From an uncultured Actinomycetota bacterium (GTDB lineage Bacteria > Actinomycetota > Actinomycetes > Streptosporangiales > Streptosporangiaceae): a stretch of 64,000 bases of DNA. This document shows, one piece after another, positions 1 to 19,607 of this stretch. The notes beneath the pieces were generated by a model. The model had not been told where the DNA came from, did no database searches, and worked only from the letters and a program-made list of their open reading frames with translations. The first letter of the stretch is position 1. Each line of letters begins with the position of its first letter. Position numbers and translations under genes: made by a program. The DNA lies in the NCBI GenBank assembly GCA_963795265.1, contig CAWCHF010000014.1, positions 77,461 to 141,460 of the forward strand. Reading direction: 5' to 3'.

Positions 1-109
1 TAGTGATTCGGAGCAACGTTCCGGATCGGAGCAATGCTCCGGAACCTTCATCATGCCAGATCGATGCGGGACGGGCCATCATGCGCCCGGCGAGGAAGGT
101 ATTCATCCC

Positions 110-1929: not shown

Positions 1930-2179
1930 CCCAGGCCATCGTCGCTCGACCGGTCTACCGGGCTACACAAGAACCCGTCGGCGCTAGAACACCTATGCCA
2001 GCCACTTTGACAGCCTGCTGCGCGAGGCACCTGAGGGTCTGTCAGGATTGATGACCGAGACGCGCGAGGGCCCCTTCTGGGTCGCCGTGAGAGGCAGAGC
2101 ACCGCTGCCGCCAGCGGCAGTAAGATTCGTTTACCGATACGACCCTGAGCTGGGCTGCCCTACTTCCTCGGAGTCCGCA

Positions 2180-2779
2180 TCAAGCTGAAAGGCGGGACGC
2201 GAGGACGAGTTCGGCGGCACGCGCCTGCAGGTCGCTGAAGGCTGCATCGGCCAAGGGCGGGAACGGTTCGTCATCGGTCGCCTTCATCCAGCGCTCGAAC
2301 GCGACGCTGAAAGCGAGCATGCCCATCTCCGCCCCCAGTCGCGCGGTGAGTTCGTCTGTGCCTCGCTCGCACAGGGCAGCGGTGACCGACTGGGTGATCC
2401 GGGCGTGCTTGAGTAGTCCCCGCTCCTGCAACTCGCTGTTCGCCGCGACCACCAGTCTGCGCCGGGCGGCAGCGGCCCGCAGTTGCGGGGTCATCGCGAC
2501 CCCAGCCGCCGTGAGCGCCGCCCGCAGGTATTCGGTGAGCGTCCCTCCAGGCGGCGCAGCCCGGATGGCGTCGGCGAATAGCCCGGCCAGCACGTCTTCC
2601 CCGCCGAAGAGGACCTCGCGCTTGTCCGCGAAATGCCGGAAAAACGTAGCGCGGTTCATTCCCGCGCGGTCCGCGATCTGCGCGACGGTCGTCTGCTCGT
2701 ACCCGGCCGCCACGAACAGGTCCAGTGCGGCGGTCTCCAGCCGCTCGCGCGCATTCGGTGCCCATCTGCTCACTGTCAC
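2180..2779 (-). CDS. TetR family transcriptional regulator
   Basis: 199-aa ORF with an N-terminal HTH (TTVAQIADRAGMNRATFFRHFADKREVLF). Divergent from the SDR gene. Confidence 0.85.
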   Translation of the reverse strand: MTVSRWAPNARERLETAALDLFVAAGYEQTTVAQIADRAGMNRATFFRHFADKREVLFGGEDVLAGLFADAIRAAPPGGTLTEYLRAALTAAGVAMTPQLRAAAARRRLVVAANSELQERGLLKHARITQSVTAALCERGTDELTARLGAEMGMLAFSVAFERWMKATDDEPFPPLADAAFSDLQARAAELVLASRLSA

Positions 2780-2796
2780 ATCCTAAGCGACGCGAT

Positions 2797-2869
2797 CGGA
2801 TCGCATCACTTGCGAGTCGATGCGACGCGGTCGCATCGACGTGGTAGGGTAATGCGACTGGATCGCATC
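2797..2869. promoter_or_regulatory. array of TetR-operator-like half sites (GATGCGA / TCGCATC), including a perfect 23-bp palindrome at 2817..2839
   Basis: TCGATGCGAC-GCG-GTCGCATCGA read directly at 2817-2839. Further half sites at 2801-2807, 2852-2858 and 2863-2869, all in the TetR/SDR divergent intergenic region. Confidence 0.55.
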
Positions 2870-2934
2870 GTTCTGGTCGCGGTGCCTGCGCCGCGCATCC
2901 TCGTCACCTGCAGCACAACCAAGGAGAATCTTTC

Positions 2935-3817
2935 ATGCGCATCTTCGTCACTGGCGCTTCGGGCTGGATCGGCTCGGCCGTCGTCCCCGAGCTCGTCGGT
3001 GCCGGCCACCAGGTCGTCGGCCTGGCCCGCTCGGACTCCTCCGCCAAAGCAGTCGCCGCCATGGGCGCCGAGGTGCTACGCGGCGACCTGAACGACACCG
3101 ACGTGCTGGGCGCCGGCACCCTCGACAGCGACGGCGTCATCCATCTGGCCTTCGTCGTGCCCAGCGTGAGCGAGGCTGCGACGCGGGCCGACGCCAGGGC
3201 CGTCGAGGCGTTTGCCGCCCGCCTCGCCGGCTCCGGCAAGCCCCTGGTGATCTCTGGCGCAACGCTCGTGACACCCGGCCGGCCCGCGACCGAACGCGAC
3301 GAACTCATCGCCGCCGGGCCCATCGCGGCCCGCATCACCAACATGCAGGCCGCCCTCGCTGCCGCGGACAGCGGCGTCCGCTCCTGCCTGGTCATGCTGC
3401 CCCGCTCGGTGCACGGCCAGGGGGAACGTCACGGCTTCGTCCCCCAGCTCATCGCCGCGGCCCGGGCTAAGGGCGTCTCCGGCTACATCGGCGACGGGGC
3501 CAGCCGCTGGCCCGCCGTCCACGTCAAGGACGCCGCACGCCTGTACCGGCTGGCCATCGAGCAGGCTCCCGCCGGCGCAGTGCTCAATGCCGTCGGTGAC
3601 GAAGGCGTGCCGGTCCGGGAGGTCGCCGAGGCCATCGGCCGGCACCTGAACCTGCCGGCCAGGTCCCTGCCCGCCGAAGAATTCGGCGGCATGCTCGTGC
3701 CCCTGCTCAGCACGGGACATGCCCGCTTCTAGCACCATCACCCAGGAACTCCTGGGCTGGAAGCCCACCCATCCCGGCCTCATCGAGGACATCGAACAGG
3801 GCCACTACTTCACCTGA
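2935..3817 (+). CDS. NAD(P)-binding SDR / NmrA-like oxidoreductase, frameshifted near 3711 as sequenced
   Basis: N-terminal MRIFVTGASGWIGSAV Rossmann motif. ORF stops at 3732, but the next frame continues ...STITQELLGWKPTHPGLIEDIEQGHYFT* to 3817. One extra G in ACGGGAC explains the shift. Confidence 0.75.
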
Positions 3818-3936
3818 CCAGCCCCATACGCGGTTCCGGGGGAATAAGGACTTGGCGAGCTGCGGTCGACAGGATCCGGCGGGGGCGACGCCTAGGCCAG
3901 CAGCCGGCAGCGCACCGTTTAGGAGAATGCGGTGGC

Positions 3937-4001
3937 GTGATCGGCGGCGAACTCAAAAGCCAATGCGTTCTCAGTAGCGTTTTCGCACTTCAGGGCACGC
4001 T
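3937..4001 (+). repeat. recombinase-tail repeat, copy A (partial)
   Basis: Shares ...AAGCCAATGCGTTCTCAGTAGCGTTTTCGCACTT... with copies B and C. Immediately precedes a DUF2637 remnant. Confidence 0.55.
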
Positions 4002-4178
4002 GTGACCGCGCGGGCCGATCGGTGGATTCGGCGGACCACTATCGGCTGCGTCAGCATACTGGCGTTGATCGCCGGGACAGTTTCGTATCTGCATGCACAT
4101 CGGGACCAGGTACAGCCGCCACGAGCGGTGGGGCGGATGGTGAAGCAGTCCGGCGTGGCGGGGGAGATCGGCTCGTGA
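4002..4178 (+). pseudogene. DUF2637-family gene remnant with a ~0.5 kb internal deletion
   Basis: Reads ...RADRWIRRTTIGCVSILALIAGTVSYLHAH then jumps to the C-terminal ...GRMVKQSGVAGEIGS*. Both ends align to the intact copy at 7573..8250. Junction lies at shared ACAT microhomology. Confidence 0.7.
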
Positions 4179-4400
4179 GGCTGGACTGCTGTGCGGTGGG
4201 CTGGCTGGAAGCCCAGACATCGACCCCGGAAAGGCCTGAGGCCCATGATCATTGCAGGCCGTGGACCTCCCTCGGACCGCCTTCCCGACGCGGCAGGCTC
4301 CGTTGGCTGATCCTGGCCGACTCGCCATCCCAGGCTCTCAACCTTGCATGTACTACAGCCTTATTCTAGGTTGAAAGGTAACCTATAACAAGGAGGTGAG

Positions 4401-5686
4401 ATGGCAAAGGTTATCCGTAAGCACTGGATCAGCGAAGCCAGCCCAGGGGTGGCTCGACGCGACCGGCCATCCTGCGACTACGAAGCATACGTCCCTGACC
4501 TCCTCACTGGCCGGAAGCAGAATATTCGAAGGGAGCACGGCAGCTGACATCGCCGATGCAGAGCGCGCTATAGCCGTCTTGGACGCTCAAGCTTCTACAT
4601 TGGTCGATACAGAGGCACTTGCTCGTATCCTGCTTCGCGCAGAAGCTGTCGCTTCCTCGCGCATCGAAGGACTAGAGGTCGGCGCACGTCGTCTGCTCAG
4701 AGCAGAAGCAGCCATTGACATGGGCGAACAGCCAACCGACGTCACCGCTGCCGAAGTCCTGGGGAACATCGAAGCGATGGCATCTGCGGTCCAGCAGATC
4801 GCGCCGGGAGACCCGATCACCGTCAACATACTTCTTGACTTTCACAAGCGGCTCCTCAGCGGTACCAGGCTGGAGACCTACGCGGGTCGTACTTCGGTCT
4901 GAGCAGAACTGGATAGGAGGTAGCAACTACAACCCCTGCTCGGCAACATTCATCCCGCCCCCGCCGGAATGCGTCCCTGACTTGCTCGAGGACCTTTTCA
5001 GCTTCTGCAACGACGACGCGCTGCCTGCCGTTGCGCAGGCGGCAATGGCGCATTCGCAATTCGAGACGATCCATCCCTTCGTTGACGGCAATGGCCGAAC
5101 AGGTCGGGCTCTGATTCACTTGATCCTCCGCCGACGTGGCTTGGCAACCCGCGTGCTGCCACCGGTTTCGCTCGTCCTTGCAACGTGGGCAAAGGACTAT
5201 GTAGATGGGTTGCAGGCAACCAGGTATAGAGGCCCGGCATCGTCGACTGCCGCGCGGAATGGGATTAATCTCTGGGTCGCTAGATTCGCTGCCGCCTGCC
5301 TCCGTGCTGTCGCTGACGCATCCGACTTCGAGAGACGATCACAATTGCTTCAGGAGGAGTGGCGAGAGAAGCTCGGCTCAGTCCGAGCTAACTCGGCTAC
5401 CGATCTGCTCCTGCGCGCCTTGCCTGGAGCGCCGCTCCTCACAGTCAAGTCTGCAACGACGCTCATCGGACGCACGTTCCCGGCCGCCAATGATGCGATT
5501 AAGAGACTTGCAGACGCAGGGATACTGCGTCCAATCAGTTTGGGCACCCGAAACCGAGCCTTCGAAGCTACGGCGGTGATTGAGGCATTCACTGCCCTCG
5601 AACGGCAACTCGCTAGCCCCGAAGGGAATACTCTGAGCAGCGAGCCGTCGCGCCGGGTGCCATACCGACAAGTGTCCGTCAACTAG
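4401..5686 (+). pseudogene. Fic/DOC family protein (AMPylase-type), two frameshifts as sequenced
   Basis: AAGGAGG RBS at 4391 and ATG at 4401. Canonical Fic motif HPFVDGNGRTGRAL. Frame breaks near 4515 and 4887 (LETYAG|VLRSEQNWIGG). About 53-58% GC, lower than the flanks. Confidence 0.8.
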
Positions 5687-6274
5687 CGGCAATGCGTTCA
5701 AGGTCCTCAGCCATGTGGGACGGTGTTGTCGAAGTCTGCCTGGTCCTTGGGGCGTGCGTGCTTGGCCTTGAAGAGCAGGACCAGTTCGGGCGCCAGGTAC
5801 GGGATGCCGCCGGGCGTGTGGTGAATGATCTCGCTATAGGGAAGCCGGATCGTCTCGTCGTGCCGGCAGATCCAGGTCTCGCCGTCATGGGGTTCACGGA
5901 ACACATCGAGCAGGTAGTTGCCGGTGGTCCGGGTCGCGGAGCCAGGTCTGGTGTGTGGCGGCCAGCATGTCCGGTGATGCTTCCTCCCAGATCCGGCCGT
6001 TGCCTACCGCGTCGAAGGCGTATCCCGGAAACCGGTCGCGGATCCGGGGAAAGCACGCCGCGGGGAGCGCGATCTCGATGTCTCCGTGGTGGCGCGTCTG
6101 CGCGCCGCGGAACAGATCCAGAGCCCATCCCGCAGCCACGCACCATGGTGTGGTGATCCCGGCCAGGTGCTGCGCGACCTGGCGCGGGGACCAGCACGAT
6201 GACCACCTTGCATCCAGGGCATCGATCTCAGCGGGTGACAACTCGATGCCACCGCCACGCGGTTGCGCGTCCAC
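5679..6274 (-). pseudogene. nucleotidyltransferase-fold protein (aminoglycoside-2''-adenylyltransferase-like family), frameshifted
   Basis: ORFs 5894..6274 and 5707..5904 join into one protein: ...WCVAAGWALDLFRGAQTRHHGDIEIALP... then ...DVFREPHDGETWICRHDETIRLPY...LLFKAKHARPKDQADF. Break near 5900. Confidence 0.6.
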
Positions 6275-6284
6275 AGGAAGGAAC

Positions 6285-6868
6285 CTACCAGCGAGATTGG
6301 GCCGGCAGCCGTGCCTGACCTGGGCCAGGCCAGTAGGTACTTGCCGGGCGGTGAATGCGCTCGAGTGCTTCGCGGAGGTCGTCGGGTAGCGGGTCGGCGG
6401 CGGTGAAGGCGTGCGGCCCGGCCTGGATCTGAATGGTCCGGTAGCGGCGGGCGGTCTTGACGAACTTGCGGATCGACCAGCCGGTTCGTGCCTCGATCCA
6501 GCGGCTGACCGCCAGGGCGGCGAACACGATGGTCAGGTGCGCTTCGATCGAGTCGCGGGTGCGGTGGTAGATCGGCCGGGCCTGCAGGTCGCTCTTGGCC
6601 ATCCGGAATGACTTCTCGATCCGGAAGAGCTGGTGGTAGGCGCCGATCACGAACTCCGCGGTCACCGGGATGCCGTCCGGGCAGGCCCGCAGGTTGGGGA
6701 CGTAAGCCTTTCAGCCCGGCCAGCGCCCGGCCCCTGGCCGCGAGGTCGCGGTTGCTGGTCCGGTTGCCGCCGGACAGCTTGACGAACCGGTTGCGTTCCA
6801 GGTGCAGCAGCTGCTGATCTCGCGGCGAGCCCGCACCGGCCCGCGCGAGCGCATCCGCACGCGCCACG
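6285..6868 (-). mobile_element. IS1634-family (IS4 superfamily) transposase, C-terminal fragment only, frameshifted
   Basis: ...NRFVKLSGGNRTSNRDLAARGRALAGLKG / YVPNLRACPDGIPVTAEFVIGAYHQLFRIEKSFRMAKSDLQARPIYHRTRDSIEAHLTIVFAALAVSRWIE... The N-terminal two-thirds are absent. Confidence 0.7.
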
Positions 6869-7500
6869 TCTACGCCCTGGCTGGCCAGGTTGTCTGCGAC
6901 GCCTGCGACCGGAAGATGCAGGCCAGCCGAGCAAACGGATACGTCTACTGCCGCTGCCGGTTCGCCGCCCAGTAGGCGATCGTCAACAGGATCAGCCATC
7001 CCCGCGACATCCTCATTCGCGAGGCCGAGCTGGTGCCCGCACTCGACGAATGGCTGGCCAGCCAGTTCGAGCCGGACCGCGTCGAGGCCACCATCGATGT
7101 CCTGACCTTGGCGCAGGAAGACCCTGGCGCCAAGCGGCAGACCATCCTCCAGGCCAGGCAGATCATCTGCGACTGCGAGGCGAAGACGGCGCGCTACCAG
7201 GCCGCGATCGACGCCGGCGCGGACATCCAGGAGATCAGCCGGTGGATAAACGCCACCAAGGCCGAGCGCCTGGCCGCCGAGGCAATGCCGCATTACCAGT
7301 GACTGCCCGAGCCGGATGACCCGCGACGAGATCACGACCCTCGTTCACCGGACCGCCAGCTTCACCGCAAGCGCTAAGGGACGCCGACATGGCGGACAAG
7401 GCAGCCCTCTATAAGGGACTGAACCTGCGGCTGACCTACGAGCACGTGACTGGGGTCATCCGGGCAGAAGCGCAGCTAGGCGAGGGCCCGTTTTGAATAA
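6845..7500 (+). pseudogene. large serine recombinase, C-terminal half only (zinc-ribbon and coiled-coil), in-frame stop plus frameshifts
   Basis: ...HVYALAGQVVCDACDRKMQASRANGYVYCRCRFAAQ*AIVNRISHPRDILIREAELVPALDEWLASQF... with TAG at 6973-6975. Tail ...DKAALYKGLNLRLTYEH... lies in other frames. N-terminal catalytic domain replaced by the IS fragment. Confidence 0.7.
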
Positions 7501-7501
7501 A

Positions 7502-7572
7502 GTGCGTGTCCGGGGGGAGCGCGCCAATAGCCAATGCATGATGACGGGTGAGTTCGCACTTGGGGGCGCGCG
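7502..7572 (+). repeat. recombinase-tail repeat, copy B (reference copy, terminal codons of the recombinase pseudogene)
   Basis: GTGCGTGTCCGGGGGGAGCGCGCCAATAGCCAATGCATGATGACGGGTGAGTTCGCACTTGGGGGCGCGCG. Translates VRVRGERANSQCMMTGEFALGGAR*. Confidence 0.65.
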
Positions 7573-8250
7573 ATGACCGGTCGGGCGGATCGGTGGATCC
7601 GGCGCACGACCATCGGGTGCGTGGGGATGCTCGCGCTGATCGCCGGGACCGTCTCCTACTTGCACATGCACCTGCTGGTGGAGCTGCACGGCCAGCCCGG
7701 CTGGGTTGCGGCGCTGACGCCGCTGTCCGTGGACGGGATGATCGTGGCCGCGTCGACGACCCTGCTCGCCGACTCGCGTGTCGGCGGGCGGGGTGGGTTC
7801 TTGCCGTGGACACTGCTTGTGGCGGGCAGCGCCGCGAGCCTGGCCGCGAACGTGGCGGTCGCCGAGCCCACGGCAACTGGACGGGTGATCGCCGCCTGGC
7901 CGTCGTACGCGTTGATCGCCGCATATGAGCTCCTTATGCGCCAGGTCCGCAAGGCGTCGGAGAACGCTGTGGCCGGGCAGCGGTCAAGGAGGTCACTTGG
8001 CGCGGTGACTGCCAGTGGCGGCAAGCCGGGTTCTGCAAGCCGGGCCGCGGCACCCGAACGCAGGGCATCGGGGCGGGACTTGCGGCTGGAAGCGTGGCAG
8101 TGGGCTCAGGACAACCGGGCTGCCGATGGCTCGCTTCCCTCGGGTCGGGACATCGGGACCAGATACGGCCGCCACGAACGGTGGGGGCGGATGGTCAAGC
8201 GCTCGGGCCTGGTCGGCGATCTAAGCGAGATCAGCTCGACACGTAGCTAG
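7573..8250 (+). CDS. DUF2637-family membrane protein (intact copy)
   Basis: 225-aa ORF. TM segments IGCVGMLALIAGTVSYLHMH, VAALTPLSVDGMIVAAS and LLVAGSAASLAANVAV. C-terminal HTH-like ...LPSGRDIGTRYGRHERWGRMVKRSG. Confidence 0.75.
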   Translation: MTGRADRWIRRTTIGCVGMLALIAGTVSYLHMHLLVELHGQPGWVAALTPLSVDGMIVAASTTLLADSRVGGRGGFLPWTLLVAGSAASLAANVAVAEPTATGRVIAAWPSYALIAAYELLMRQVRKASENAVAGQRSRRSLGAVTASGGKPGSASRAAAPERRASGRDLRLEAWQWAQDNRAADGSLPSGRDIGTRYGRHERWGRMVKRSGLVGDLSEISSTRS

Positions 8251-8301
8251 CTAGCAGGCGATATTCCTAGGTTGGGCATTACATCGCGATATGAAAGTTT
8301 C

Positions 8302-9190
8302 ATGGCTGCAGACCAGAGCACACCGGTGACTGAGCCTGTATCTGCCGATGGCGGACCAACCGAGACGATCTCTCAGTTCGTTGCGCGCGTTCTAGATCAG
8401 TTGTCGTTGAGCGCATGGCTACCGGCCGCGGCACTGCTGCTACTGCTGGACTTCATCGTGCAGCTAGGCGTTGCGTTGGATGCCAAGGGGGAAGGGCCCG
8501 GCCTGGGTAATTGGCGATGCTCTGACCCGGATGAGCGCGATTGGCATAGGCGGCGCCGTGCTGCTGGTGATCGCAGTAGTGGTCGTCACGATCTTGACGC
8601 AAGCTTTTTCTTTCGAAGCGATCAGAGGTTGGAGGGCTACTGGGGCACGACGGATGCTGTGGAGTCGATCGCGCGGTGGCGAGCAAGTCGACATCGCGGT
8701 CACAAGGGCAAGCTTGACCGTCGTCGGCGGAAGCTGACCGAGGATGCGTGGGCAGTTGCGAAGGCGAAGATCATCGAGATGGAGGATGGCCGTCGGCAGA
8801 ATGGACTGCGGCCTGATCTGACTCCCATCATGATCGGTCGTCTGGAAGCTCGGGTGTTGAAGACGTTTCCGGTCGGTCGGTTGACGCCGAAGCAGCTGGA
8901 GCGCGTTCGTCGATACGATTGGGCAGCGCCAAGCGCCGAGCTCAGGCTTGCTGCGGCGAAGGGTGAAAGTCGGCAAGCAAATGAACGATTTCCCCAGGCC
9001 CGAGCGCACTCTTCCGACGAGGCTAAGGCAACATCCTGCGCGCACATGAGGATCAGATCGAGCACTGAGGCGGTTCGAGCGTTTCATCCAGGATGTCTTC
9101 GATGAAACTGGCCGCGGTGACTTCAGAAGGATCACGGACGAGCAACGGAATACCGCCTTGAGCGTGTACTGTTCTCTATTGTCTTCTTAG
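8302..9190 (+). pseudogene. hypothetical 2-TM membrane protein with charged coiled-coil-like C-terminal part, several frame breaks as sequenced
   Basis: ATG at 8302. TM1 LSAWLPAAALLLLLDFIVQLGVAL. TM2 (AIGIGGAVLLVIAVVVVTILTQAF) is readable only in the +1 frame (ORF 8471..8737), then returns at ...EAIRG|LEGYWG. Tail frames change again after about 8965. About 60-65% GC. Confidence 0.5.
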
Positions 9191-9774
9191 TCGCCGTTGA
9201 GCGGAATAGTAGGGAATTGCTAGGTTCACACCTCAGCAGCTGGCCCTATGCAACTGGCAGTGCCACCGCGGCCAACGGTGGAATTTGGATCATGCACCGC
9301 GCAGCTCTCGCCACGGCGCGAGCATATCGGTGAGCTACTGGTCGCAATCGCGCGGAGAACATACACCTTGACCATTGGCCAGTCTGGATGCCGCGGACAT
9401 GGATCAGGTTCCGGAGCAGGCGGAGCCTCGACCTCGTAGGGGCAGCGAGGCTTGCCGCAGCGCCAAATCACATCCCGGCGCTCGGGAGTCGGCACCCGCC
9501 TGTCATTCACGTGCTTAGCGTGTGCCCCTCGGCTACGAATGTCGACAGCGCCCGGCGGTTCTTCCGCGTATCGAAATCTCCCAGGCAGTGACGTGGCTGA
9601 GCAAGAGGGCGGGTGGCAGAGCGGCGTGGTACTGCCGGGGTGCCCATCAGGCACGACCGACGCGGGAACGAGCACAGGCGACACACTCCCAGATGGCCGC
9701 AGTGACAGCGTGCGGACTCGCACGGCAACCAGACCGGGCGTAATAGCGGAGCCCAATCGCAGTAAATTGATGCC

Positions 9775-10408
9775 GTGCGCATCCTTGGGCCATCCAGCCG
9801 AGACGAGCTCATACTCGCTTGGCTTTACAGCGAGTGGCCCCGGACCGACTCTTTGAGGCCGCTAGTCGATCATCCCGATCTCTCTGACGCTGTGCAGAAC
9901 ACCGCTAGGGTCCAGATGCTGTTTAGCATCAGGGCAAACATTATCCAGGAGCTTCCCCACGGGATGCGGCCAAGACTTGGTCGATATCGAAGACGCTGAC
10001 ATAGCTAGCCTCTACATCCTTCCTTGCCGCGAGTGGTATCTCGACTCCGGTCGCACCTTCCGCCTCGCTGACGTGCCCGCGAACCTGGCTCCCGGTCGCC
10101 ACCCTGTCGGTCACCTCGCCAAAGTCGACGCCATCGCTCCATCGCTCGCCGACTATGAGGCCGCTACAACACGTGAAGTGCTCATCCTGAACGCCGCGGA
10201 GCAAACTGGACCGTACACGATCATCGAGGGCACTCACCGCGCTACTGCGCTTTATCGCAACCAACTCGGTAAGCCCAACATGCCCTGGAGGGCCATATTG
10301 GTTGCCGACCCACTCATTAAGCAATCTCCCTGGCACATCGAATCGCTCCGGGCGGGGATCACTCTCAACCTGTGCGCTTGGGAGGCCGAGCTAGGACAAC
10401 TGCGGTAA
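9775..10408 (+). pseudogene. hypothetical protein with ParB/Srx-fold, DGQHR-like motif (IIEGTHRATALY), one frameshift near 9975
   Basis: ORFs 9775..9999 and 9977..10408 join at ...ELPHGMRPR|LVDIEDADIASLY (one extra G). Motif GPYTIIEGTHRATAL resembles the ParB N-domain / DndB DGQHR box. Confidence 0.5.
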
Positions 10409-10439
10409 CGAGTACGGGCGCGACGCAGACCCTCCCTTC

Positions 10440-11239
10440 TCAGTGCCAGCGCGATCGGATGTACTGCCTGAGTTGGTTAAGCTGCGCTGGGGTCAGCGGC
10501 GCGCAGTTCACTTTCAGATCGCCGCGTTGGTTTGGGTGCGGTAGCTGCAGCACCATGCGGTCCGCGCCCTCGAGGCTCAGCGGGCCCGTCATCGGCACCC
10601 CGGCGGGAATCCGAAAGGTGTCGCGGAAGGCCGTCCGGGCATGGGCACCGAACAGCACGATCACCGGCGCTAGGGCAACACGGACGACTGGGCGGAGCCA
10701 GGTCGCAACGCACTGGTCGAGCGCCTCCGCCACTCCGAGCTCCCCGAGCTGACTTGCAGTGGACGACTTCGGTGAGAACAAAGTGTCGGCCCGGTTCGGC
10801 GGGACGCTCGAGTAGTTCAGCTGCCCGGGCTCGGGTCCTAGACCAGAAAACTGTTGAAGTGGCTCGATGCCTTGGCGGCGTGGTGGCCAGTAGGGGCCGC
10901 AACCGCTGATCGACCCAAGGAACCGTCCGCCGATCGAAGCGTCCGTCGAAGAAGTCAATCCGCTGTCCCCCATCCCAGGATGCCGTCGGATAAGCCTCCC
11001 GCGCGGTCGATAGACGGATTGCTGCTGACGAACAGAATCGGCGCGCGAGAAATGTGTCCGCTCCACGGTTCAGGAACGTGGAACTCGTCAGGCCCAGCCG
11101 CGTCCTGAGACCTCACGATGGCCGAGCATGAAAGATGTTCGCCCGCCAGGCAACGCTCGGCTGTTGGGCATCGGGTAATCCGGACGAGAAGCGAATTAGG
11201 GGCCGATGTCAGGTCAAGGTCATAGGAGAGATCCTCCAC
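10440..11239 (-). pseudogene. uracil-DNA glycosylase superfamily (UDG-like) protein, at least 2 frameshifts
   Basis: The N-terminal part has PEPWSGHISRAPILFVSSNPS (ORF 10955..11239). The middle has FVLTEVVHCKS (frame of ORF 10477..10902). The C-terminal part ...VIVLFGAHARTAF...LQLPHPNQRG lies in ORF 10440..11066. Confidence 0.6.
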
Positions 11240-11317
11240 GACCAGACGACCGGGCGCAGGTTACGTGACGCCCTTAGAGCATCCTGTCTTCGCCGCATGC
11301 GAATAGACGGCCGCACG

Positions 11318-11408
11318 ATGATCTTCGATGGGGCCTCGGCGGTAAGGGGGGAGCGCACCCATAAGCCAATGCGTACTGACCGGTGAGTTCGCGCTCGGCG
11401 GTGCGCGC
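11318..11408 (+). repeat. recombinase-tail repeat, copy C
   Basis: ATGATCTTCGATGGGGCC...GGGGAGCGCACCCATAAGCCAATGCGTACTGACCGGTGAGTTCGCGCTCGGCGGTGCGCGC aligns to copies B and D. No recombinase body upstream. Confidence 0.65.
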
Positions 11409-12092
11409 TTGACCGGGCGGACCGATGGGTGGATTCGGTGGACAACGATCGGGTGCGTCGGCTTCCTGGCGCTGATCGCCGGCACCGCGTAGTATCTGCA
11501 TATGCACCTGCTGGTTGAGCTGCACGGGCAGCCGGGCTGGCTAGCGGCGCTGACGCCACTATCAGTAGACGGGATGATCGTGGCAGCGTCGACGACGCTG
11601 TCGGCCGACTCGCGTAGCGGCGGCCGAACCGGGTTCCTGCCCTGGGCGTTGCTTGTGGCGGGCAGCGCGTCAAGCCTGGCGGCAAACGTTGCGGTTAGCG
11701 GAGCCGACGGTCACTGGCCGCATCATCGCGGCCTGGCCGTCGTTTTCGCTGATCGCCGCATTCGAGTTGCTGATGCGCCAGGTCAGGCGCGCTGCTGCGA
11801 CACCTTCGCCCACAAAGTCATCGCGGCGGCCCGTCCAGGTTCTGGGCGCGGTCCCGGTCGCCGGCAGCGGACCTGCCAGAACAGGCTGTCCTGTCGCGAG
11901 GTACTACCACGCCTCGGCGCGGGACGTCCGGGACAAAATGCCCGGCTGGAGGCGTGGCTGTGGGCTCGGGACAACCGGGCAGAGGACGGCGCGCTTCCCT
12001 CAGGCCGGGAAATCGGCACCAGGCATGGTCGCCACGAGCGGTGGGGACGGATGGTCAAGCAATCCGGGCTGGCCCGCGAGATTGGTGCGTAG
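11409..12092 (+). pseudogene. DUF2637-family gene, degraded copy (TTG start, in-frame TAG at 11490-11492, two frameshifts)
   Basis: Collinear with 7573..8250: ...WIRWTTIGCVGFLALIAGTA*YLHMHLLVELHGQPGW... The frame leaves near 11700 (correct frame is in ORF 11653..12138) and returns near 11940. Confidence 0.75.
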
Positions 12093-12163
12093 GGTCGGCA
12101 GGACTGACCCGCGCGGTTGTGGGATGCTGCCGGGATGATCGTGCGGTGGTTGCTGGTGTGCGC

Positions 12164-12801
12164 ATGAGCTCGGACGTGCCTGTCCGGGTGATGCGCGGGG
12201 ACCTGCCCGGTGACCTTGCCGATGCCTTTGCGCGCTCAAGTCGAATCGCCTGGGACATCGAGACCACGGGCTTGGACTGGCGGCAGGAAAGGATCGGGAC
12301 TTGCCAGCTGTTCTCGGAGACCGTGGGCGTGGCCGTGATCGGTATCGGCCAGGACAGGCCCGCTCGGCCTGGCGGCCCTCCTTGAGGACAGCTCAGTTGA
12401 AAAGGTCTTTCATCACGCGCCATTCGATTTGCGTTTCATGGCTAGCGCCTGGCGAGTGTCACCCACCGCCATTCGGTGCACGAAGGTCTGCTTCCAAGAT
12501 CCTTAATCCGGAGGCGCCGAATGAGCACCGACAGCCTCCAACGTCTTGTCGGCAGGTCTCTTGAGGTCAAGTTCCCCAAAGGCGCAGTTCGCGTGAGCGA
12601 TTGGTCGGCGGCAGACCTGACTGATGAGCAGATCCGCTATGCGGCGAACGATGTCGTGCACCTCCCGCGCTCTCCTTGACGTCATGGAGCAGGCACTCCT
12701 GGCGAGCGGTCGCGAAGACCTGTATGCCGCCTGCTGCGCGTTTCCTTCCAGCAAGGGTGACACTTGAGCTGGGTGGCTACCCCGACGTGTTCTCCTACTG
12801 A
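12164..12801 (+). pseudogene. RNase D-like 3'-5' exonuclease (DnaQ/DEDD fold), multiple frameshifts
   Basis: IAWDIETTGLDW (ExoI), KVFHHAPFDLRF (ExoII) and SDWSAADLTDEQIRYAANDVVHL (ExoIII) are read across ORFs 11954..12385, 12301..12564 and 12476..12679. Tail ...ELGGYPDVFSY* ends at 12801. Confidence 0.65.
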
Positions 12802-13629
12802 CCTTCGGCCAGCAGCTCCCACCGCTCGCTGGTGAAGAAACGGAAACCAGGAGTCGGCGCGGCCCGGAGCCGGGCTGAGCACGCGAAGATGCCACGGCGC
12901 CTCAGGGCCGTTGACATGATCAGCGATTACATGCACCTGAGCACGCTCCATAAGGCGATGCAGATCCTCGACCAGCAGGTTGGGAACCCAGCCGATCGGG
13001 ATCAGCGGCGCTGCTGTAACGACTATTGCCAGCGGGTTGTTCGGATTCTCTGGCTCAGGGACCATGCCGAGGTCATCACCGCCATGGAGGCTTTCGAGCG
13101 CGGCGTCGACCTGATCACGGGTAACTTCTATCCGGACGCCGCTGAGGATCTTTGCAGTCCTGTGCGCATGGCGTACGCCGTGAACGAGGAACTGGCAGCT
13201 GATCCCCGCGAGGTCGATGGTCGGCTCAGGGGATAAGCTGGATTGTGTCGCCTTCCCTATGCCCCTGGGATCGTGCGATCTGTTCCCACGGACTAGGGTC
13301 GCCTTCCAGGCCGAGTCGGCTGACGTACCGCTCGTAGTCTCGGCCATAAGGGGGTCCATAGCGCGCTGCGCGAAAAGCGGGAACAGCTCGTCAGAGCGAT
13401 AACTGGCGCGCTGGTCATCGAAACCCAGAAGTCCAGGGAAGTCATGCACCGTCAGTGCATTCCGTATGTAGCTGAATCGGTAGCCCTGATCATCGCAGGA
13501 CAAGAACCCCACGGGCTCGATCGAGCGCTCGACAGGGTGCTGCCAGGCCACGACGAGCCGACCGGGCACCTCGGCGGATCGGCCTGCGGGCTTGCGCCGC
13601 GCAGTTGCTAGAACGCTATCGGCAGACAT
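12795..13629 (-). pseudogene. HIRAN-domain protein with HipA-N-terminal-like region, three frameshifts as sequenced
   Basis: N-terminal ...PVGFLSCDDQGYRFSYI...ELFPLFAQRAMDP. HIRAN-like core FLVHGVRH...LHGGDDLGMVPEPENPNNPLAIVV...IGWVPNLLVEDL...VNGPEAPWHLRVL. Alternative-frame tail ...PGFRFFTSERWELLAEGQ* ends at 12795. Start overlaps the upstream kinase stop by 14 nt. Confidence 0.6.
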
Positions 13630-14533
13630 CGAGCACCCTCCTCCGATTCACCTCAAGCACTCTGCCTGCAAAGGTACGCGCGGCCTCTGACATTCGGGGC
13701 ACCCTGACCAGGACGCGCCTTATATCATCGCCGCTGACCTCCTGTAGCTGGGAAATCCAGTGGTCGTGAGCGGGTGGCGAGGCCATATCCAAAGCAATCT
13801 TGGCTGCGTCGACTAGCCCTGGGCGCCCTTCCAGCCGATTCGCCCGCCCCCTTAGGCACCAGCCCTCCACGCCGGCCTCTCCGAACCGAGGAGCTGATCA
13901 AGCCGGGCATCACGCTCGCCGAAGGCAAGGGCGCTGGCATGGTCGTACGAGCCGCTGAGCAACGACGGCCCGCTCACGCCGGACGTTCCTGGGACCAAGA
14001 CGGACCAATTATGATCATGACGATCCTGATTCGCAATCCAGGCATCAAATACTATATAACCAGCAAATATATCGAAGGCCGTCGCGTTAAACGGCAGATT
14101 GTAGCTGGGAGGCAGCCCGCATCCCGTAAGCGCGTCTTTGATGTTGGATAGCGAGTGACCGGGGTGATCCTTGCCGGCCTCTTTGTGGACGTAGCCCGGT
14201 GCGTTGACAGTCTCGAGGAGTGCCTGACCAGGCTGCATCTGATACTCGTCGGGGCGCAGATTAGCTGATATGCAGCCGCGCAGGCCGTGCCAGACAGCGA
14301 GCTCGACGCGGGCAGCGGGAATGCCCAGTGCCTCGGCCAGATGCGAAGCAGCCTTCTCAGCCCAGTCCTCGCCATGAACATGACCGTTCTTGACGGTTAC
14401 GGTTTTGAGCAGCCAGCGGACCTTGTTGCCAGGTTCCTCGAGCCATACCTTGGTCTTCAGCACCTGACGTTTCTTCGTCAGTGACATCCCAGGCAGTGAC
14501 GTCAATCTTCGGGAACGGCAGATCCTCGGGCAC
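13616..14533 (-). pseudogene. HipA-like Ser/Thr kinase (C-terminal kinase core only), two frameshifts as sequenced
   Basis: GEDWAEKAASHLAEALGIPAARVELA and the catalytic-type motif FDAWIANQDRHDHNW. N-terminal VPEDLPFPKIDVTAWDV is in another frame (GTG 14533). C-terminal part lies in ORF 13616..13870. Confidence 0.65.
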
Positions 14534-15025
14534 GACGAAAGCCTACGGGCTCATCGCCGCCGGTTCTCCTCTGGGCCGTGCCCTGCGATGCACGTCCGCC
14601 AAGGCCAGTTCCCGGTGGCGGCGTCGCGGAGGTGAAGCAGGGTGGCAGGACCGCGCATCACCGGGAACACCGCCCGGCGGTGTGTTCGCTGGGCGAGACG
14701 CTGGCGATCTATTGGGGGAGGCACGGGTCGGCTGCACATGTTTAGCGCGGTGCCGGCCTGGTTCCGGTTCGTGAGGTAAAGGCATGCCACGACACTGGCC
14801 ATGCTGGCCGAAAGCTTCGAGGTGGTGGGCGGGTGCCAGGACCGGGTGCTGGCCGACCGGGATGGGCTGCCAGAAGGGCGACCGGATGGGCTGCACGAAG
14901 GCCGGTGTCGTTGCGAATGTGGGATCGCCCGCTCGGGACCATGTCCGGTCCGCGACCACCTACGGATTCCGGCCGGACTTCTGCGAGGCTCATGCCCCGG
15001 AATCCAAGAGTAAAGGCCTTTCAAG

Positions 15026-16296
15026 CTAATTCTGGCCGGACGCTGCAGCGCTTCGTGGCGGAGGTGGTCGTCCTGTCCGACGAAAGCTTTGAACGGTAAC
15101 TAGCCGGTAAGCGTCCCCGGACTTGCGCGTTTCGATTTCAATATGGAAGTCGCGTTTGAGATGGGCTAGCTGCCGCTCGAACGCCGGGACGTCGACGGGC
15201 GCAGGAAGGCGGCGCAGGATCTGCTCCATGGTCAGGAAGCCTGCGTGTTCGCGGAGAACCTTGTAGATCGGGTCGTGTGCCGCCGGGAGCTTGCTTGACG
15301 GCGTAACGAGTGTCGCCCGTGTGATCCAGAGCAATCCGGATCTGCTGGCCGATCGCCCGAGCCATGGGCGGCGGGGATGTCATTGCCTATCTGCCGGTAG
15401 TTCGAGGGTTTTGCGGCCAGTGAACAACCACCTGTACTCGCGGTCGTCCCACCCTTGGAGCCTGGCGACCATCTCGCAGGTGAGCTTGGGCAGCAGATCT
15501 GCAGGATCACTCGCCGAGGGGGCTGCGTCCGCGACTCCGAGCGCGTCCACACCCATCGCCCGCCAGGCGCGCTTGGCGCGGGTGGGGCCGAGGTCGGCAC
15601 CACCGTGTTTCTTCGAGCCGCCGACGATAGTGGGGGCGATGTCGTTAAGCTTTTCCCAGCCCACGCGATCGCACCGGGCCAGCCGTTGGTCGCCATCAGG
15701 TAGCGCAGCGTTTCCCCGACCGTGGGAGGTTCGCCCTGGCGTTTCGGCCAGGTGAAGTGCGCAAGGTCATCGGGGCACATGGCGATGAGCACGAACCGGG
15801 GCCGCAGCTGCGGTACGCCGTAGTCGAAAACGTGGAGCAGCTGCCATTCAGCTGCGGTAGCCCAGCTCGGCCAAGCGGTCCAGTACATGCTGGCGGTAGG
15901 CGGCAAAGCGGGGCAGCGGAGAGGGCCGCGGACGTTCTCTAGGAGCAGCGCACGAGGGCCGATGACACTGCACAATTCGACAGCCCAGGCAAACAGGTCG
16001 CGCTCGTCAGTCGCGCCTAGCTGTCGGCCAGCGATCGTAAACGGCGGGCAAGGCACGCCGCCCGCGAGCAAGTCAATACCGGCGTAGGCGACGGGGTCCC
16101 AGACGTCGACGCTGGCGACGTCCCCTTGGGCAACTTTCCAAGAGGGCCGATTGTGCCTGAGGGTGGCGCATGCGTTCGGGTCTAGTTCGATGCACAGCTC
16201 ATGCTCGAAGCCGGCCAGCTCAAGCCCGAGCGACTGCCCGCCTGCCCCGGCGCAAATCTCTACCACTCGGTACAACGTGATCGCCTCCGTGACCAA
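15026..16296 (-). pseudogene. DNA (cytosine-5)-methyltransferase, M.NaeI-like, at least 5 frameshifts
   Basis: Motif I EICAGAGG, motif IV GGVPCPPFTIAG, motif VI ENVRG, motif VIII QLRPRFVLIA. The block TIVGGSKKHGGADLGPTRAKRAW (ORF 15380..15664) and motif X YRQIGN...PPPMARAIG lie in other frames. Confidence 0.75.
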
Positions 16297-16442
16297 CGGC
16301 GGGCGGCTCGACGCCCATATGCAGAATCATGCCGGAACACTGCCATCGGATGGCGGACCCCCAGCGCATTTGGAAGGTGTGTTCGAAGGCGGCCTAAGCT
16401 GGCTGCCTGACATCGGGCAGTACTGGCGCTGGCTCCACGGGA

Positions 16443-17280
16443 TCATCGGGCTGCGCGACAACCCATTCGCGGCCATCGAGCGTCACCGAAGGCAGCCCCA
16501 TGATCGGGCCTCTTCCGGGCTAGCCGTACACTCACTGACTCACCGGGTCCGGGTACCGGTATCGCCAGTGCCTGCGCGATCCGCCGGTGACTGTCGTACT
16601 GGCCGAGGATCACGATCCCCTCCGGGCGCAGGCTGGTCCGGGATCCGCCGTTGCCCCGAACCCGTTTCATGTAGTCCTCCTGCTCAGCCACGGTCGCAAC
16701 AACGGTCCGGCTGATGAGGCGCCGCTGCGCTAGCCGGAACAGCATGTCCACCCGCCTCGTCCCGCTGGGACACCCGAAGATCGCCTGTACATCTGTGGGC
16801 GGTATCCGGAGCAGCGCGTTCTCCGGAAGTGCGCGGTAGTGATAGATCCAGGTGACTTCTGCCCTGCCTGCCGCCGACAGGCGTCGCTTGAGATCCCGGT
16901 TTCCCCGCGAGCTAGTCAGGAGGTGATCTGCGGGCGCGAACAAGGCCCAGAGACCATCTGCCCTGATCATCGCTAGCCCACAGCCCGAGAAGGATCTGTC
17001 CCACAGCTTCGGGAGGGATCATCCAGTCGGCCAGGCCCTGCGAGTACTTGCAGTCAACGTCGTGCCCGCAGATGGCGAAATCCATCGCCGTCGCCGTCGG
17101 CGAAGCCGAACTCGCGCTGCAGGTTGATCTCCCCAGGGTGCCGAAATGAGTCTTCTCGGTCTTGTAAAGCTGATCCCAGCGGTACCTCCCGGTGTGCTGG
17201 CCATCGAGAAGCATGTCGTAGGTGCGGCGCAACACCCTGGCGACTTTCGATCCGTCTGGATCATGAGCAAGTGAGCTCAT
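16443..17280 (-). pseudogene. NaeI-family type II restriction endonuclease, frameshifted
   Basis: TGRYRWDQLYKTEKTHFGTL, DVDCKYSQGLADWMIPPEAVGQILLGLWASDD, NRDLKRRLSAAGRAEV and VATVAEQEDYMKRVRGNGGSRTSLRPEGIVILG closely parallel R.NaeI. Split over ORFs 16912..17280 and 16443..16970 with an internal out-of-frame patch. Confidence 0.75.
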
Positions 17281-17511
17281 CCCCTACGGCTCTCAGGGCC
17301 GGGTCGTCCGGGGGCATCAATGAGTCGAAAAGTGATGCATTCGCTATCACCAATGCAGCGTAACGATCAGCGATTCGGGCCGAGCCCTGATTGTCGGGGT
17401 TTCGTGGCGAATTGACTGTGACATGGCTCGCCGGAAGTTGGCGGGACCGGGCAGTATGTGCATGTGGCACCGAGCTACGTGATCCGCAGGGCGTTAACCG
17501 GTGAGCTGAGC

Positions 17512-18389: not shown

Positions 18390-18521
18390 CGGCGCGCGTT
18401 ACCAGGGCAGGTGCTGTGTCAGGGCCCAGCTCCACAGTGGGAGGGATGTCGTTACTCGCGACTCGCAGGGCGACCTTCCTGTCTGCGGGCAACTCCCTGC
18501 CGCAGACCAAATGGCGCTGGT

Positions 18522-19350: not shown

Positions 19351-19496
19351 CTAACGTACATTCCCCCGGCCGCGCAGGGCTGCCGCCGTCTTCGAGCACG
19401 CTGTATATCCCAGACTCAAGTCAAGGAGGAGACGCAATTACGACGCGCGCAAGAAACTGCCGGTTGACCCGGCATCTCCGGGCGGGCTGTCTCTTG

Positions 19497-19572
19497 ATGA
19501 TCTTCGACGGGGCTCCAGCCGCCAGGGAGGAGCGCGCCAATAGGCCAATGCACGCTGACGGTGAGTTCTCGC
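19497..19572 (+). repeat. recombinase-tail repeat, copy D (abuts the jetD 3' end)
   Basis: ATGATCTTCGACGGGGCTCCAGCCGCCAGGGAGGAGCGCGCCAATAGGCCAATGCACGCTGACGGTGAGTTCTCGCTC. Translates ...MIFDGAPAAREERANRPMHADGEFSL. Confidence 0.65.
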
Positions 19573-19607
19573 TCAGAAATGCACGGTGCCGGGCCAGCAG
19601 CGAACGC

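What the first reader, a model, noticed from the sequence alone, without database searches (positions are those of the whole stretch)
8251..11239. Candidate uncharacterised three-gene module: 2-TM protein, ParB/DGQHR-like protein and UDG-superfamily protein
The cargo between repeat copies B and C is compositionally distinct. My hand count gives about 60-65% GC over 9281-9520, against about 70% elsewhere. It encodes three proteins.
- 8302-9190: a protein with two strongly hydrophobic helices and a charged C-terminal part.
- 9775-10408: a ~210-aa protein whose only recognisable feature is GPYTIIEGTHRATAL. This resembles the ParB N-domain / DndB-type DGQHR box found in DNA-modification and defence loci.
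- 10440-11239 (minus strand): a UDG-superfamily protein with PEPWSG..APILFVSSNPS and TEVVHCKS.

A nucleic-acid-binding ParB-fold protein, a base-excision-fold enzyme and a membrane protein sit together in a slot whose neighbours hold Fic, R-M and Wadjet. That context suggests a defence or DNA-modification-sensing system, and I cannot match it to a named one.

All three genes are frame-disrupted as sequenced. About 580 bp (9191-9774) remains unassigned.
Basis: inference. Interest (0 to 1): 0.7.

Follow-up and report, generated by a model that had tools for sequence, protein, structure and literature searches.

The report
Three unrelated cargo genes, not a module
The three genes are real and probably intact, but they are independent single-gene passengers in a defence island rather than one system; the most interesting is a DNA glycosylase distantly resembling the antiviral enzyme Brig1.

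Summary
The low-GC stretch (61.5% against 67.6% for the window) between two DUF2637 repeat genes does hold three protein genes.

- **No co-occurrence.** Relatives of the three genes never sit together in 57 G1, 51 G2 and 8 G3 loci. The only exception is a second assembly of the same element (L010).
- **No shared operon.** None of the three has a conserved neighbour, and G2 and G3 are convergent.
- **Closest G2 relative.** It lies directly after a DUF2637 gene, with no G1 or G3 nearby.
- **Frame disruptions.** Most look like long-read assembly noise. L010, 98-99% identical here, lacks all of them except one in G1.
- **G1.** It spans 8302-9439 and encodes about 378 aa with 3-4 membrane helices. 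This fills most of the "unassigned" DNA. No fold or family match was found.
- **G2.** It has a confident model whose best structural matches are all ParB/sulfiredoxin-fold proteins, but the matches are weak. It is not a DndB/DGQHR member.
- **G3.** It belongs to the UDG superfamily. It keeps family-4-like iron-sulfur cysteines, a MUG/SMUG-type SSNPS motif, and an invariant Glu matching Brig1's essential E147. It is most likely a stand-alone antiviral glycosylase, which is inferred rather than shown.

Interest is modest.

The parts
7512..8250 (+). DUF2637 repeat unit B: a conserved leader of about 70 nt plus the DUF2637 gene (7573-8250). It forms the left boundary of the cargo slot.
   Evidence: Pfam PF10935 at 6.7e-17. 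phrog_733, in the integration/excision category, at 1e-17. About 81% identical to copy C. The leader aligns among copies A-D.
8302..9439 (+). G1: a membrane protein of about 378 aa. It has N-terminal TM helices, a helical charged middle domain and a C-terminal hydrophobic hairpin. As sequenced it is broken by about 12-13 indels and one in-frame stop.
   Evidence: Full-length homologues of 350-380 aa at 60% identity. Frameshift-aware alignment. Hydropathy analysis. AF2 model of homologue P0151: pLDDT 83.4, all-alpha. No fold or family match.
9440..9774 (.). Residual intergenic DNA between G1 and G2 (335 bp), with no recognised feature.
   Evidence: No Rfam match. No promoter or terminator signal above shuffles. 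No similarity to the flanks of other G2 loci. DNA homology with L117 starts only at 9753, 22 bp before the G2 start.
9775..10408 (+). G2: a solitary 210-aa protein with an invariant GPY-IID/EG-HR motif and a C-terminal core that looks like the ParB/sulfiredoxin fold. One spurious frameshift at about 9972.
   Evidence: Intact 210-aa homologues at 80% identity. AF2 pLDDT 89.7. Foldseek top hits are Srx, PadC, Noc, ParB-CDP, SerK and DndB-like proteins. SbnI matches at the motif, E 0.02-0.11.
10440..11239 (-). G3: a UDG-superfamily glycosylase of about 253-265 aa. The probable true start is the ATG at about 11207, which an inserted base destroys in this assembly. Two spurious frameshifts at about 10746 and 10998.
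   Evidence: Homologues cover 94-97% of the protein and are 74-77% identical after repair. Pfam UDG in 38 of 40 members. Family-4 UDG structures at E 1.3e-4. hhalign to Brig1 gives probability 62%, E 7.5e-5. The L010 reading frame is intact.
11317..12092 (+). DUF2637 repeat unit C: leader plus gene. As sequenced it has an in-frame TAG at 11490. It forms the right boundary of the slot.
   Evidence: Repeat families D1, D2, D4 and D6. Alignment of copies A-D. L010 has TCG where the window has TAG.

Best explanation
The interval 8251-11239 is one cargo slot of a mosaic defence/mobile island in an actinobacterial metagenome-assembled genome. The slot is bounded by two copies of a repeated unit made of a leader plus a DUF2637 gene. 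It holds three genes that arrived, and presumably act, independently.

**G1 (8302-9439).** It belongs to a widespread actinobacterial family of 3-4-TM, all-helical membrane proteins. These always occur as solitary genes in variable, transposase-rich neighbourhoods. Its function is unknown. My best guess is a membrane-acting accessory or exclusion protein, which is inferred and weak.

**G2 (9775-10408).** It is a rare solitary protein. Its C-terminal half most resembles the nucleotide-binding ParB/sulfiredoxin fold and carries the invariant (D/E)G-HR box. It most likely binds or hydrolyses a nucleotide, which is inferred. Close relatives sit in other defence islands.

**G3 (10440 to about 11207, minus strand).** It is a stand-alone monofunctional DNA glycosylase of the UDG superfamily.
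- It keeps the two C-terminal iron-sulfur cysteines of family-4 UDGs.
- Its first motif is the Asn-containing SSNPS type.
- It has an invariant Glu where uracil-specific enzymes have Asn. This is the same substitution as the essential E147 of Brig1.
- It most likely flips out and excises a non-uracil base, probably a modified cytosine-type base, from invading phage DNA. That would leave abasic sites that block replication, as Brig1, Brig2 and Brig3 do. The fold and residues are shown here; the activity and the target are inferred.

**Frame disruptions.** Nearly all of them are errors of a noisy long-read assembly.
For: **Independence**
- No G2, G3 or DUF2637 relative lies within +/-8 kb of 57 G1 relatives. 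No G1 or G3 relative lies near 51 G2 relatives, of which 28-29 have at least 1 kb of the relevant flank. No G1 or G2 relative lies near 8 G3 relatives.
- G1 has no conserved neighbour cluster. Its 136 sampled neighbours fall into 148 Pfam families, with transposases the commonest.
- G2 flanks match only between near-identical contigs.
- In L117, DUF2637 is followed 50 bp later by the G2 homologue, with no G1 or G3. Nucleotide homology to the window is confined to 9753-10408.
- G2 and G3 are convergent.

**Context of relatives**
- G2 relatives sit next to a DUF1156/DUF499/SNF2 cluster plus Hachiman, next to a NACHT/ThiF cluster, and next to Tn7-like genes.
- G3 relatives sit next to a serine recombinase, IS elements, and a TIR protein.

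**G3 identity:**, with the roles of Brig1 residues taken from PMC11078745.

**G2 fold:**

**Artefactual frameshifts:**

**Island context:**
Against: - No activity was tested for any of the three genes.
- G3 relatives were sampled in only about 6 distinct contexts. Some of these (L112, L114-116) show no obvious defence genes.
- The closest G1 relative (L119) lies among LysR and SDR genes, not defence genes.
- All of G2's fold matches are statistically weak and cover only about a third to a half of the protein.
- More distant G2-like domains are fused to membrane flippases. That points away from a DNA-related role.
- The G1 frameshift at about 8500 is shared by both assemblies, so it could be real.
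- A lineage-specific functional association of the three genes cannot be excluded by comparative data alone.
Confidence: 0.7

Rival explanations
1. The three genes form a genuine but lineage-restricted three-component defence or DNA-modification-sensing system. A membrane effector, a ParB-like sensor and a glycosylase would have assembled recently in this island.
For: They are adjacent, share a lower GC than the flanks, and lie in a defence island. They are kept together in the second assembly, L010. UDG-like defence enzymes can have accessory partners, as with Brig3-BapA.
Against: - L010 is the same element, so it is not independent evidence.
- No co-occurrence was found in more than 110 other loci.
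- G2 and G3 are convergent, and G1 and G2 are separated by 335 bp.
- The closest G2 relative lacks both partners.
- BapA is a beta-barrel protein, unlike G1 or G2.
Confidence: 0.07
2. G3 is an ordinary base-excision-repair uracil-DNA glycosylase, a divergent family-4 enzyme carried as a passenger. The slot has no defence role.
For: The best solved relatives are repair-type family-4 UDGs, and the Fe-S cysteine positions are conserved. The weak NCBIfam hits are mainly to family 4. Some G3 relatives have non-defence neighbours.
Against: - The family fails the family-4 model by a wide margin: about 12 bits against a cut-off of 125.
- Motif A is SSNPS rather than GE(A/G)PG.
- The uracil-reading Asn is replaced by an invariant Glu, as in Brig1.
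- Distribution is sporadic, with no synteny, and MGE or defence neighbours appear in most sampled contexts.
Confidence: 0.2
3. The slot is decaying junk. The three genes are true pseudogenes left after an element degraded.
For: There are many frame disruptions as sequenced. DUF2637 copy C has an in-frame stop. IS and recombinase fragments lie nearby at 6000-7400. The G1 shift at about 8500 is shared with L010.
Against: - The indels are private to each assembly.
- They are insertion-biased (105 against 52) and clustered (20 within 440 bp), while the flanks are 100% identical. That is a pattern of assembly error, not of decay.
- After repair, the proteins align end to end with intact homologues at 60-80% identity and keep all invariant residues.
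Confidence: 0.08

Closest known systems
Brig1 / Brig2 / Brig3 antiviral DNA glycosylases (UDG superfamily)
   Same: - G3 is a UDG-superfamily protein of about 250 aa. It sits in an actinobacterial defence island that also carries Wadjet, as brig1 does.
- Both share the best structural relative, the S. tokodaii family-4 UDG.
- hhalign aligns 140 columns. These include P(E/D)PW-G, the xxNPx motif, the aromatic at the position of Brig1 Y121 (G3 F131), and an invariant Glu at the position of Brig1's essential E147.
- Its relatives occur without a conserved partner gene, in line with Brig1 and Brig2, which work alone.
   Different: - Only 20% identical. The hhalign probability is 62%.
- It fails the NCBIfam Brig1 model: about 12 bits against a cut-off of 230.
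- G3 keeps cysteines at the family-4 Fe-S ligand positions, which Brig1 lacks.
- Its C-terminal motif is LPHPN.
- No activity or target is known.
Family-4 (UdgA-type) iron-sulfur uracil-DNA glycosylases
   Same: The family profile matches 4ZBX, 1L9G/1VK2 and 1UI0 over the C-terminal half. C161 and C176 align with the two C-terminal cluster cysteines. The HP(N/S) motif is retained.
   Different: - Motif A is SSNPS, not GE(A/G)PG.
- The N-terminal CxxC is replaced by C24...C38.
- Asn82 (S. tokodaii numbering) is replaced by Glu.
- It fails TIGR00758 and NF040953 by a wide margin.
ParB/sulfiredoxin-fold proteins (ParB/Noc CTPases, sulfiredoxin, SerK/SbnI kinases, DndB, GmrSD N-domain)
   Same: G2 has a beta-strand, (D/E)G-HR, helix core. 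All top Foldseek matches in PDB and BFVD belong to this fold. The only profile-sequence match is SbnI, exactly at this motif.
   Different: - No match reaches significance: best E is 0.0065 in BFVD and 0.14 in PDB.
- No hit to Pfam ParBc, DndB or DUF262, nor to the NCBIfam DGQHR model.
- The N-terminal 125 residues have no counterpart.
- There is no HTH or DNA-binding domain.
- Distant relatives are fused to membrane flippases.
Variable cargo hotspots of defence islands and integrated mobile elements
   Same: Unrelated defence-type genes (Fic, HipA, R-M, Wadjet and the three genes here) sit between repeated conserved units. GC is lower than in the host. The island is about 99% identical between two hosts whose core genes differ by about 10%.
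   Different: The repeated boundary unit is a DUF2637 gene with a conserved leader, not a known integron attC or a phage hotspot flank. No integrase or att site was identified.

Membership tests
Multi-gene defence system (conserved gene module) | The component genes co-occur as neighbours across unrelated genomes. | tested here: not met
   No co-occurrence in 57 G1 loci, 51 G2 loci or 8 G3 loci. Only L010, which is the same element, has all three.
Multi-gene defence system (conserved gene module) | The components are arranged so that they can be co-transcribed. | tested here: not met
   G1 and G2 are on the + strand with a 335-bp gap. G3 is on the - strand, convergent with G2 (stops at 10408 and 10440).
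Known defence systems (PADLOC-DB v2) | A match to any component model. | tested here: not met
   No hit for G1, G2 or G3. For 31 G1 relatives there were only chance-level hits, E 0.015.
UDG superfamily (Pfam PF03167) | A profile match to the UDG fold family. | tested here: met
   38 of 40 family members match, best E 1e-9. The family profile hits family-4 UDG structures at 1.3e-4.
UDG family 4 (TIGR00758 / NF040953) | A score above the curated cut-off, and the GE(A/G)PG motif A. | tested here: not met
   Best scores are about 11-13 bits against cut-offs of 125 and 250. The motif is SSNPS.
UDG family 4 (TIGR00758 / NF040953) | Four cysteine ligands of a [4Fe-4S] cluster. | tested here: inconclusive
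   C161 and C176 align with the two C-terminal ligands. The N-terminal CxxC is absent, but C24 (at least 90% conserved) and C38 (invariant) could substitute. Cluster binding cannot be tested here.
Brig1 (NF047634 antiviral_Brig1) | A score above the curated cut-off of 230 bits. | tested here: not met
   About 12 bits. Only 3 of 40 members show even a weak hit.
Brig1 (NF047634 antiviral_Brig1) | A Glu at the base-reading position (E147) and a stacking aromatic (Y121), both needed for immunity. | tested here: met
   hhalign pairs the invariant E157 with E147, and F131 with Y121. The roles of these residues come from PMC11078745.
Brig1 (NF047634 antiviral_Brig1) | Excises modified phage bases and protects against phage. 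| not testable with these tools
   Needs biochemistry and phage challenge.
ParB/sulfiredoxin fold | A structural match to the fold, with the (D/G)G-HR nucleotide-binding box. | tested here: inconclusive
   The motif is invariant. The top 20 or so PDB hits and most BFVD hits have this fold. However, E is 0.14 or higher in PDB and 0.0065 or higher in BFVD, and TM normalised to the query is about 0.3.
DndB / DGQHR domain family | A profile match (Pfam DndB, NCBIfam DGQHR models) and association with dnd or ssp genes. | tested here: not met
   No Pfam or NCBIfam hit for G2 or for 63 wider relatives. No dnd or ssp genes were seen in the neighbourhoods.
ParB (chromosome/plasmid partition) | An HTH DNA-binding domain and the GERRxRA CTP-binding box, with a parA partner. 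| tested here: not met
   No ParBc hit. The model has no HTH domain. No parA neighbour was found.

The most novel reading that the evidence does not exclude
G3 founds a new iron-sulfur-containing branch of antiviral "Brig-like" DNA glycosylases that target a modified base. G2 is a new single-gene defence protein built on a ParB/sulfiredoxin nucleotide-binding core. The repeated unit of leader plus DUF2637 gene marks a cassette-accumulating hotspot in actinobacterial islands, into which such single-gene defences are inserted one at a time.
Probability: 0.3. Interest if true: 0.55.

Novelty: new member of a known kind. Interest (0 to 1): 0.3.

Why it matters
The proposed new three-component defence system is not there, so that lead should be dropped. 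The region instead supplies three candidates that can be tested separately.

- **G3.** It offers a cheap experiment: express an intact orthologue such as P0001 or P0004 and test base excision and phage protection. A positive result would extend the newly recognised class of glycosylase-based immunity (Brig1-3, Dag1/2) to a family-4-like Fe-S scaffold, in a family with more than 430 members.
- **G2.** It belongs to a rare family (27 close relatives among 5.8 billion proteins) that recurs in defence islands.
- **Method.** Clustered frameshifts in long-read metagenome assemblies should not be read as pseudogenes without checking a second assembly or the reads.

Tried and rejected
- **G1 fold search.** Foldseek of the G1 model against PDB returned only generic helical bundles, with E about 1 or worse.
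- **Plasmid and phage databases.** tblastn of G1, G2 and G3 against PLSDB plasmids, and of G3 against GenBank phages, gave no match.
- **Viral contigs.** IMG/VR scans for all three families gave no confirmed relative.
- **Non-coding features.** Rfam and promoter/terminator scans of 7300-12300 found nothing above chance.
- **Literature.** A search on DUF2637 elements was unproductive.
- **Frame repair.** My first hand-repaired G3 used the wrong frame in the middle third. I corrected it with tblastn against homologues.
- **BapA.** I asked whether the Brig3 partner BapA resembles G1 or G2. It does not: BapA is an ASCH-like beta-barrel protein.
- **DUF2637 with G1.** I considered a functional pair. 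It is rejected, because no DUF2637 gene lies near any of the 57 G1 relatives.
- **Source organism.** The lookup returned no name.
Full report
**What is in the sequence**

The interval 8251-11239 lies between two copies of a DUF2637 gene, at 7573-8250 and about 11409-12092. The copies are about 81% identical and match Pfam PF10935 at 6.7e-17. The interval is compositionally distinct. Its GC is 0.615, against 0.676 for the whole window and 0.70/0.68 for the two DUF2637 genes. The quoted peptide motifs are all present.

- Fic at 4715-5686
- a HipA-like kinase at 13852-14505
- a C5 methylase at 15232-16296, with NaeI next to it
- Wadjet JetD at 19608-20624 and JetC at 20763-24164

**The frame disruptions are mostly assembly noise**

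A metagenomic contig, L010 (ENA ERZ25039590, 19.9 kb), is colinear with window 3-19523 at 96.6% identity and is 98% identical over 8200-11520. The two assemblies differ mainly by single-base indels at different places.
- G2 is broken in the window by an extra A at about 9972. L010 lacks that base, but it has its own deletion at about 10296, where the window is correct.
- Both of G3's internal shifts (about 10746 and 10998) are absent from L010, where G3 is one open frame.
- An extra base at about 11205 destroys what in L010 is a clean ATG start (M-A-P-N-S-L-L-V-R-I-T-R-C-P), which matches the N-termini of homologues.
- Relative to L010 the window has 105 extra bases and 52 missing ones. Twenty insertions fall within 8921-9361 while the adjacent DNA is identical. 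That pattern fits consensus error, not decay.
- After repair, each protein aligns end to end with intact homologues.
- Only the G1 shift at about 8500, in a G/C-run context, is shared by both assemblies.

A frameshift-aware alignment to homologues of 351-375 aa places G1 at 8302-9439. It needs about 12-13 corrections and has one in-frame stop. The "unassigned" DNA therefore shrinks to 9440-9774. That stretch has no Rfam match, no promoter or terminator signal above shuffles, and no similarity to the flanks of other G2 loci.

G1 belongs to a family with more than 300 members, mostly Actinomycetota such as Arthrobacter, Kribbella, Dactylosporangium and Nostocoides. The family has highly conserved motifs: LSQFVARVLDQLSLSAWLP, TQAFSFEAIRxLEGYWG, PTRLGNxLRxHED, HDEQRxRLDLYCSM and RAAxAxARAYG. 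The AF2 model of homologue P0151 is confident (pLDDT 83.4) and all-helical. It has N-terminal membrane helices, a long charged helical middle and a C-terminal hydrophobic hairpin. It has no meaningful structural neighbour in the PDB and no Pfam, PADLOC, NCBIfam or PHROG match.

**G2 most resembles the ParB/sulfiredoxin fold, but only weakly**

The repaired 210-aa protein has only 27 close relatives among 5.8 billion clustered proteins. These include intact 210-aa proteins at 80% identity. A profile search widens the family to 1098 representatives.

The motif GPY-II(D/E)G-HR is invariant, and the AF2 model is confident (pLDDT 89.7, pTM 0.87).
- The top 20 or so Foldseek matches in the PDB are all ParB/sulfiredoxin-fold proteins: sulfiredoxin, PadC, Noc, ParB-CDP, Spo0J, Atu1540 and free serine kinase.
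- The BFVD matches are dominated by ParB-like, "ParB/Sulfiredoxin", DndB-like "DNA-sulfur modification-associated" and GmrSD-N proteins.
- No match is significant. The best E is 0.14 in PDB and 0.0065 in BFVD, and only a third to a half of the protein is covered.
- The only profile-sequence match is SbnI, exactly at the motif, with E 0.02-0.11.
- There is no hit to the Pfam or NCBIfam ParBc, DndB or DGQHR models.

More distant G2-like domains carry N-terminal multi-TM regions, including MOP-flippase domains and once a STAS domain. This warns against assuming a DNA-related role.

**G3 is a UDG-superfamily enzyme with Brig1-like features**

The repaired protein covers 94-97% of homologues of about 255 aa. 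Of 40 family members, 38 hit Pfam UDG. The family profile hits family-4 UDG structures, with 4ZBX at 1.3e-4, followed by 1L9G/1VK2 and 1UI0.

In that alignment:
- C161 and C176 fall on the two C-terminal Fe-S cysteines of family-4 enzymes.
- The invariant E157 falls on Asn82 of the S. tokodaii enzyme.
- Motif A is SSNPS, an Asn-type motif as in MUG and SMUG (this comparison rests on my own knowledge), rather than GE(A/G)PG.

The family fails the curated family-4 and Brig1 NCBIfam models by a wide margin.

I took the Brig1 sequence from the supplement of PMC11078745. hhalign against it gives probability 62% and E 7.5e-5 over 140 columns. It pairs PEPWSG with PDPWVG, SSNPS with GLNPG, F131 with Y121, and E157 with E147. 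The Brig1 paper shows that Y121 and E147 are required for immunity and notes that this position is usually Asn in uracil glycosylases. Brig1 also came from an actinobacterial defence island carrying Wadjet. Brig2 and Brig3 show that UDG-fold enzymes have been recruited repeatedly for defence.

**The module hypothesis fails**

I collected three sets of loci:
- 57 loci with G1 relatives, 50 of which have at least 1 kb on both sides
- 51 loci with G2 relatives, 28-29 of which have at least 1 kb on the relevant side
- 8 loci with G3 relatives

None contains a second member of the trio. Only L010, which is the same element, has all three.

Further points against a module:
- Clustering of ORFs within 5 kb of G1 relatives finds no conserved neighbour.
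- The 136 nearest neighbours of G1 relatives fall into 148 Pfam families, headed by transposases.
- G2 flanks are shared only between near-identical contigs.
- G2 relatives sit in varied settings: beside a DUF1156/DUF499/SNF2 cluster and Hachiman, beside a NACHT/ThiF/ubiquitin-like cluster, and beside Tn7-like genes.
- G3 relatives sit beside IS elements, a serine recombinase, a TIR protein or unremarkable genes.
- In L117, the closest intact G2 relative (80% aa identity) starts 50 bp after a DUF2637 gene, with no G1 or G3. Nucleotide homology to the window is confined to 9753-10408, which is essentially the ORF alone.
- G2 and G3 are convergent, so the three genes cannot form one operon.

**Interpretation**

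The interval is a cargo slot in a mosaic island that holds three independently acquired solitary genes. For G3 I commit to a stand-alone Brig-like antiviral glycosylase acting on a non-uracil, probably cytosine-type, modified base, at roughly 45% against roughly 20-30% for a repair-type enzyme. G2 is probably a nucleotide-binding ParB/Srx-type protein of unknown role. G1 is a membrane protein of unknown role. None of these activities is shown.

**Verdict**

The module interpretation is not supported, although the fold-level calls are largely right. What remains is three uncharacterised single genes, and G3 is a new member of the known class of UDG-fold defence candidates. Interest is 0.3.

Noticed in passing
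window 3947-4170, 7512-8250, 11317-12092, 19496-19594; L117 3-461 and 2678-2839: A unit made of a conserved leader of about 70 nt (..GAGCGCGCC.AT.AGCCAATGC.T.CTGAC.GGTGAGTTCGCACT..) plus a DUF2637 gene recurs four times. It is complete twice, a fragment once and leader-only once. It partitions the island into slots holding Fic; then G1, G2 and G3; then exonuclease, HipA and R-M; then Wadjet. An unrelated contig (L117) shows a DUF2637 gene, a G2 homologue and then another DUF2637 fragment. The DUF2637 protein matches phrog_733, in the integration/excision category, at 1e-17. This may be a cassette-accumulating hotspot or tandem accretion of related elements.
   Followed up: partly
window 1-19523 vs L010: Substitution density against the second assembly is about 10% over the core metabolic genes at 1-4 kb. 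It is only about 0.5-1% over the island at 5-16 kb. This suggests the island is shared or recently exchanged between two diverged hosts at the same chromosomal site.
   Followed up: partly
window 8921-9361 and 11490-11492: A 440-bp patch has 20 single-base insertions and about 20 substitutions relative to L010, while its flanks are identical. DUF2637 copy C has an in-frame TAG where L010 has TCG. Both look like local consensus or polishing failures in a long-read assembly. They may reflect strain heterogeneity or base-modification-related miscalls.
   Followed up: partly
proteins P0310, P0334, P0348, P0352, P0313, P0323 and others: More distant G2-like domains (motif TIIEGNHR) are fused to the C-terminus of multi-TM proteins. 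Several of these are MOP-family flippases (Polysacc_synt_3), and one also has a STAS domain. This hints at a membrane or envelope-linked role for the wider family.
   Followed up: partly
L003 1-13465: A 66%-identical G2 relative sits between two gene groups. One is a large cluster of an SNF2 helicase, a DUF1156 methyltransferase and a DUF499 protein. The other is a Hachiman pair (HamA plus helicase). G2 is the lone small gene in a dense defence island.
   Followed up: no
window 6000-7400: There are fragments of a DDE transposase on the minus strand (about 6285-6665) and of a serine-recombinase zinc-ribbon or C-terminal region on the plus strand (about 6802-7302). They lie just upstream of DUF2637 copy B. 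They were read from ORF translations only.
   Followed up: no
window 12150-14505: A DnaQ/RNase D-like 3'-5' exonuclease gene (Pfam DNA_pol_A_exo1 in L010) follows DUF2637 copy C. After it, on the minus strand, come an unannotated 315-aa ORF (12682-13629) and a HipA C-terminal kinase ORF (13852-14505). This may be a split or frameshifted HipA.
   Followed up: no
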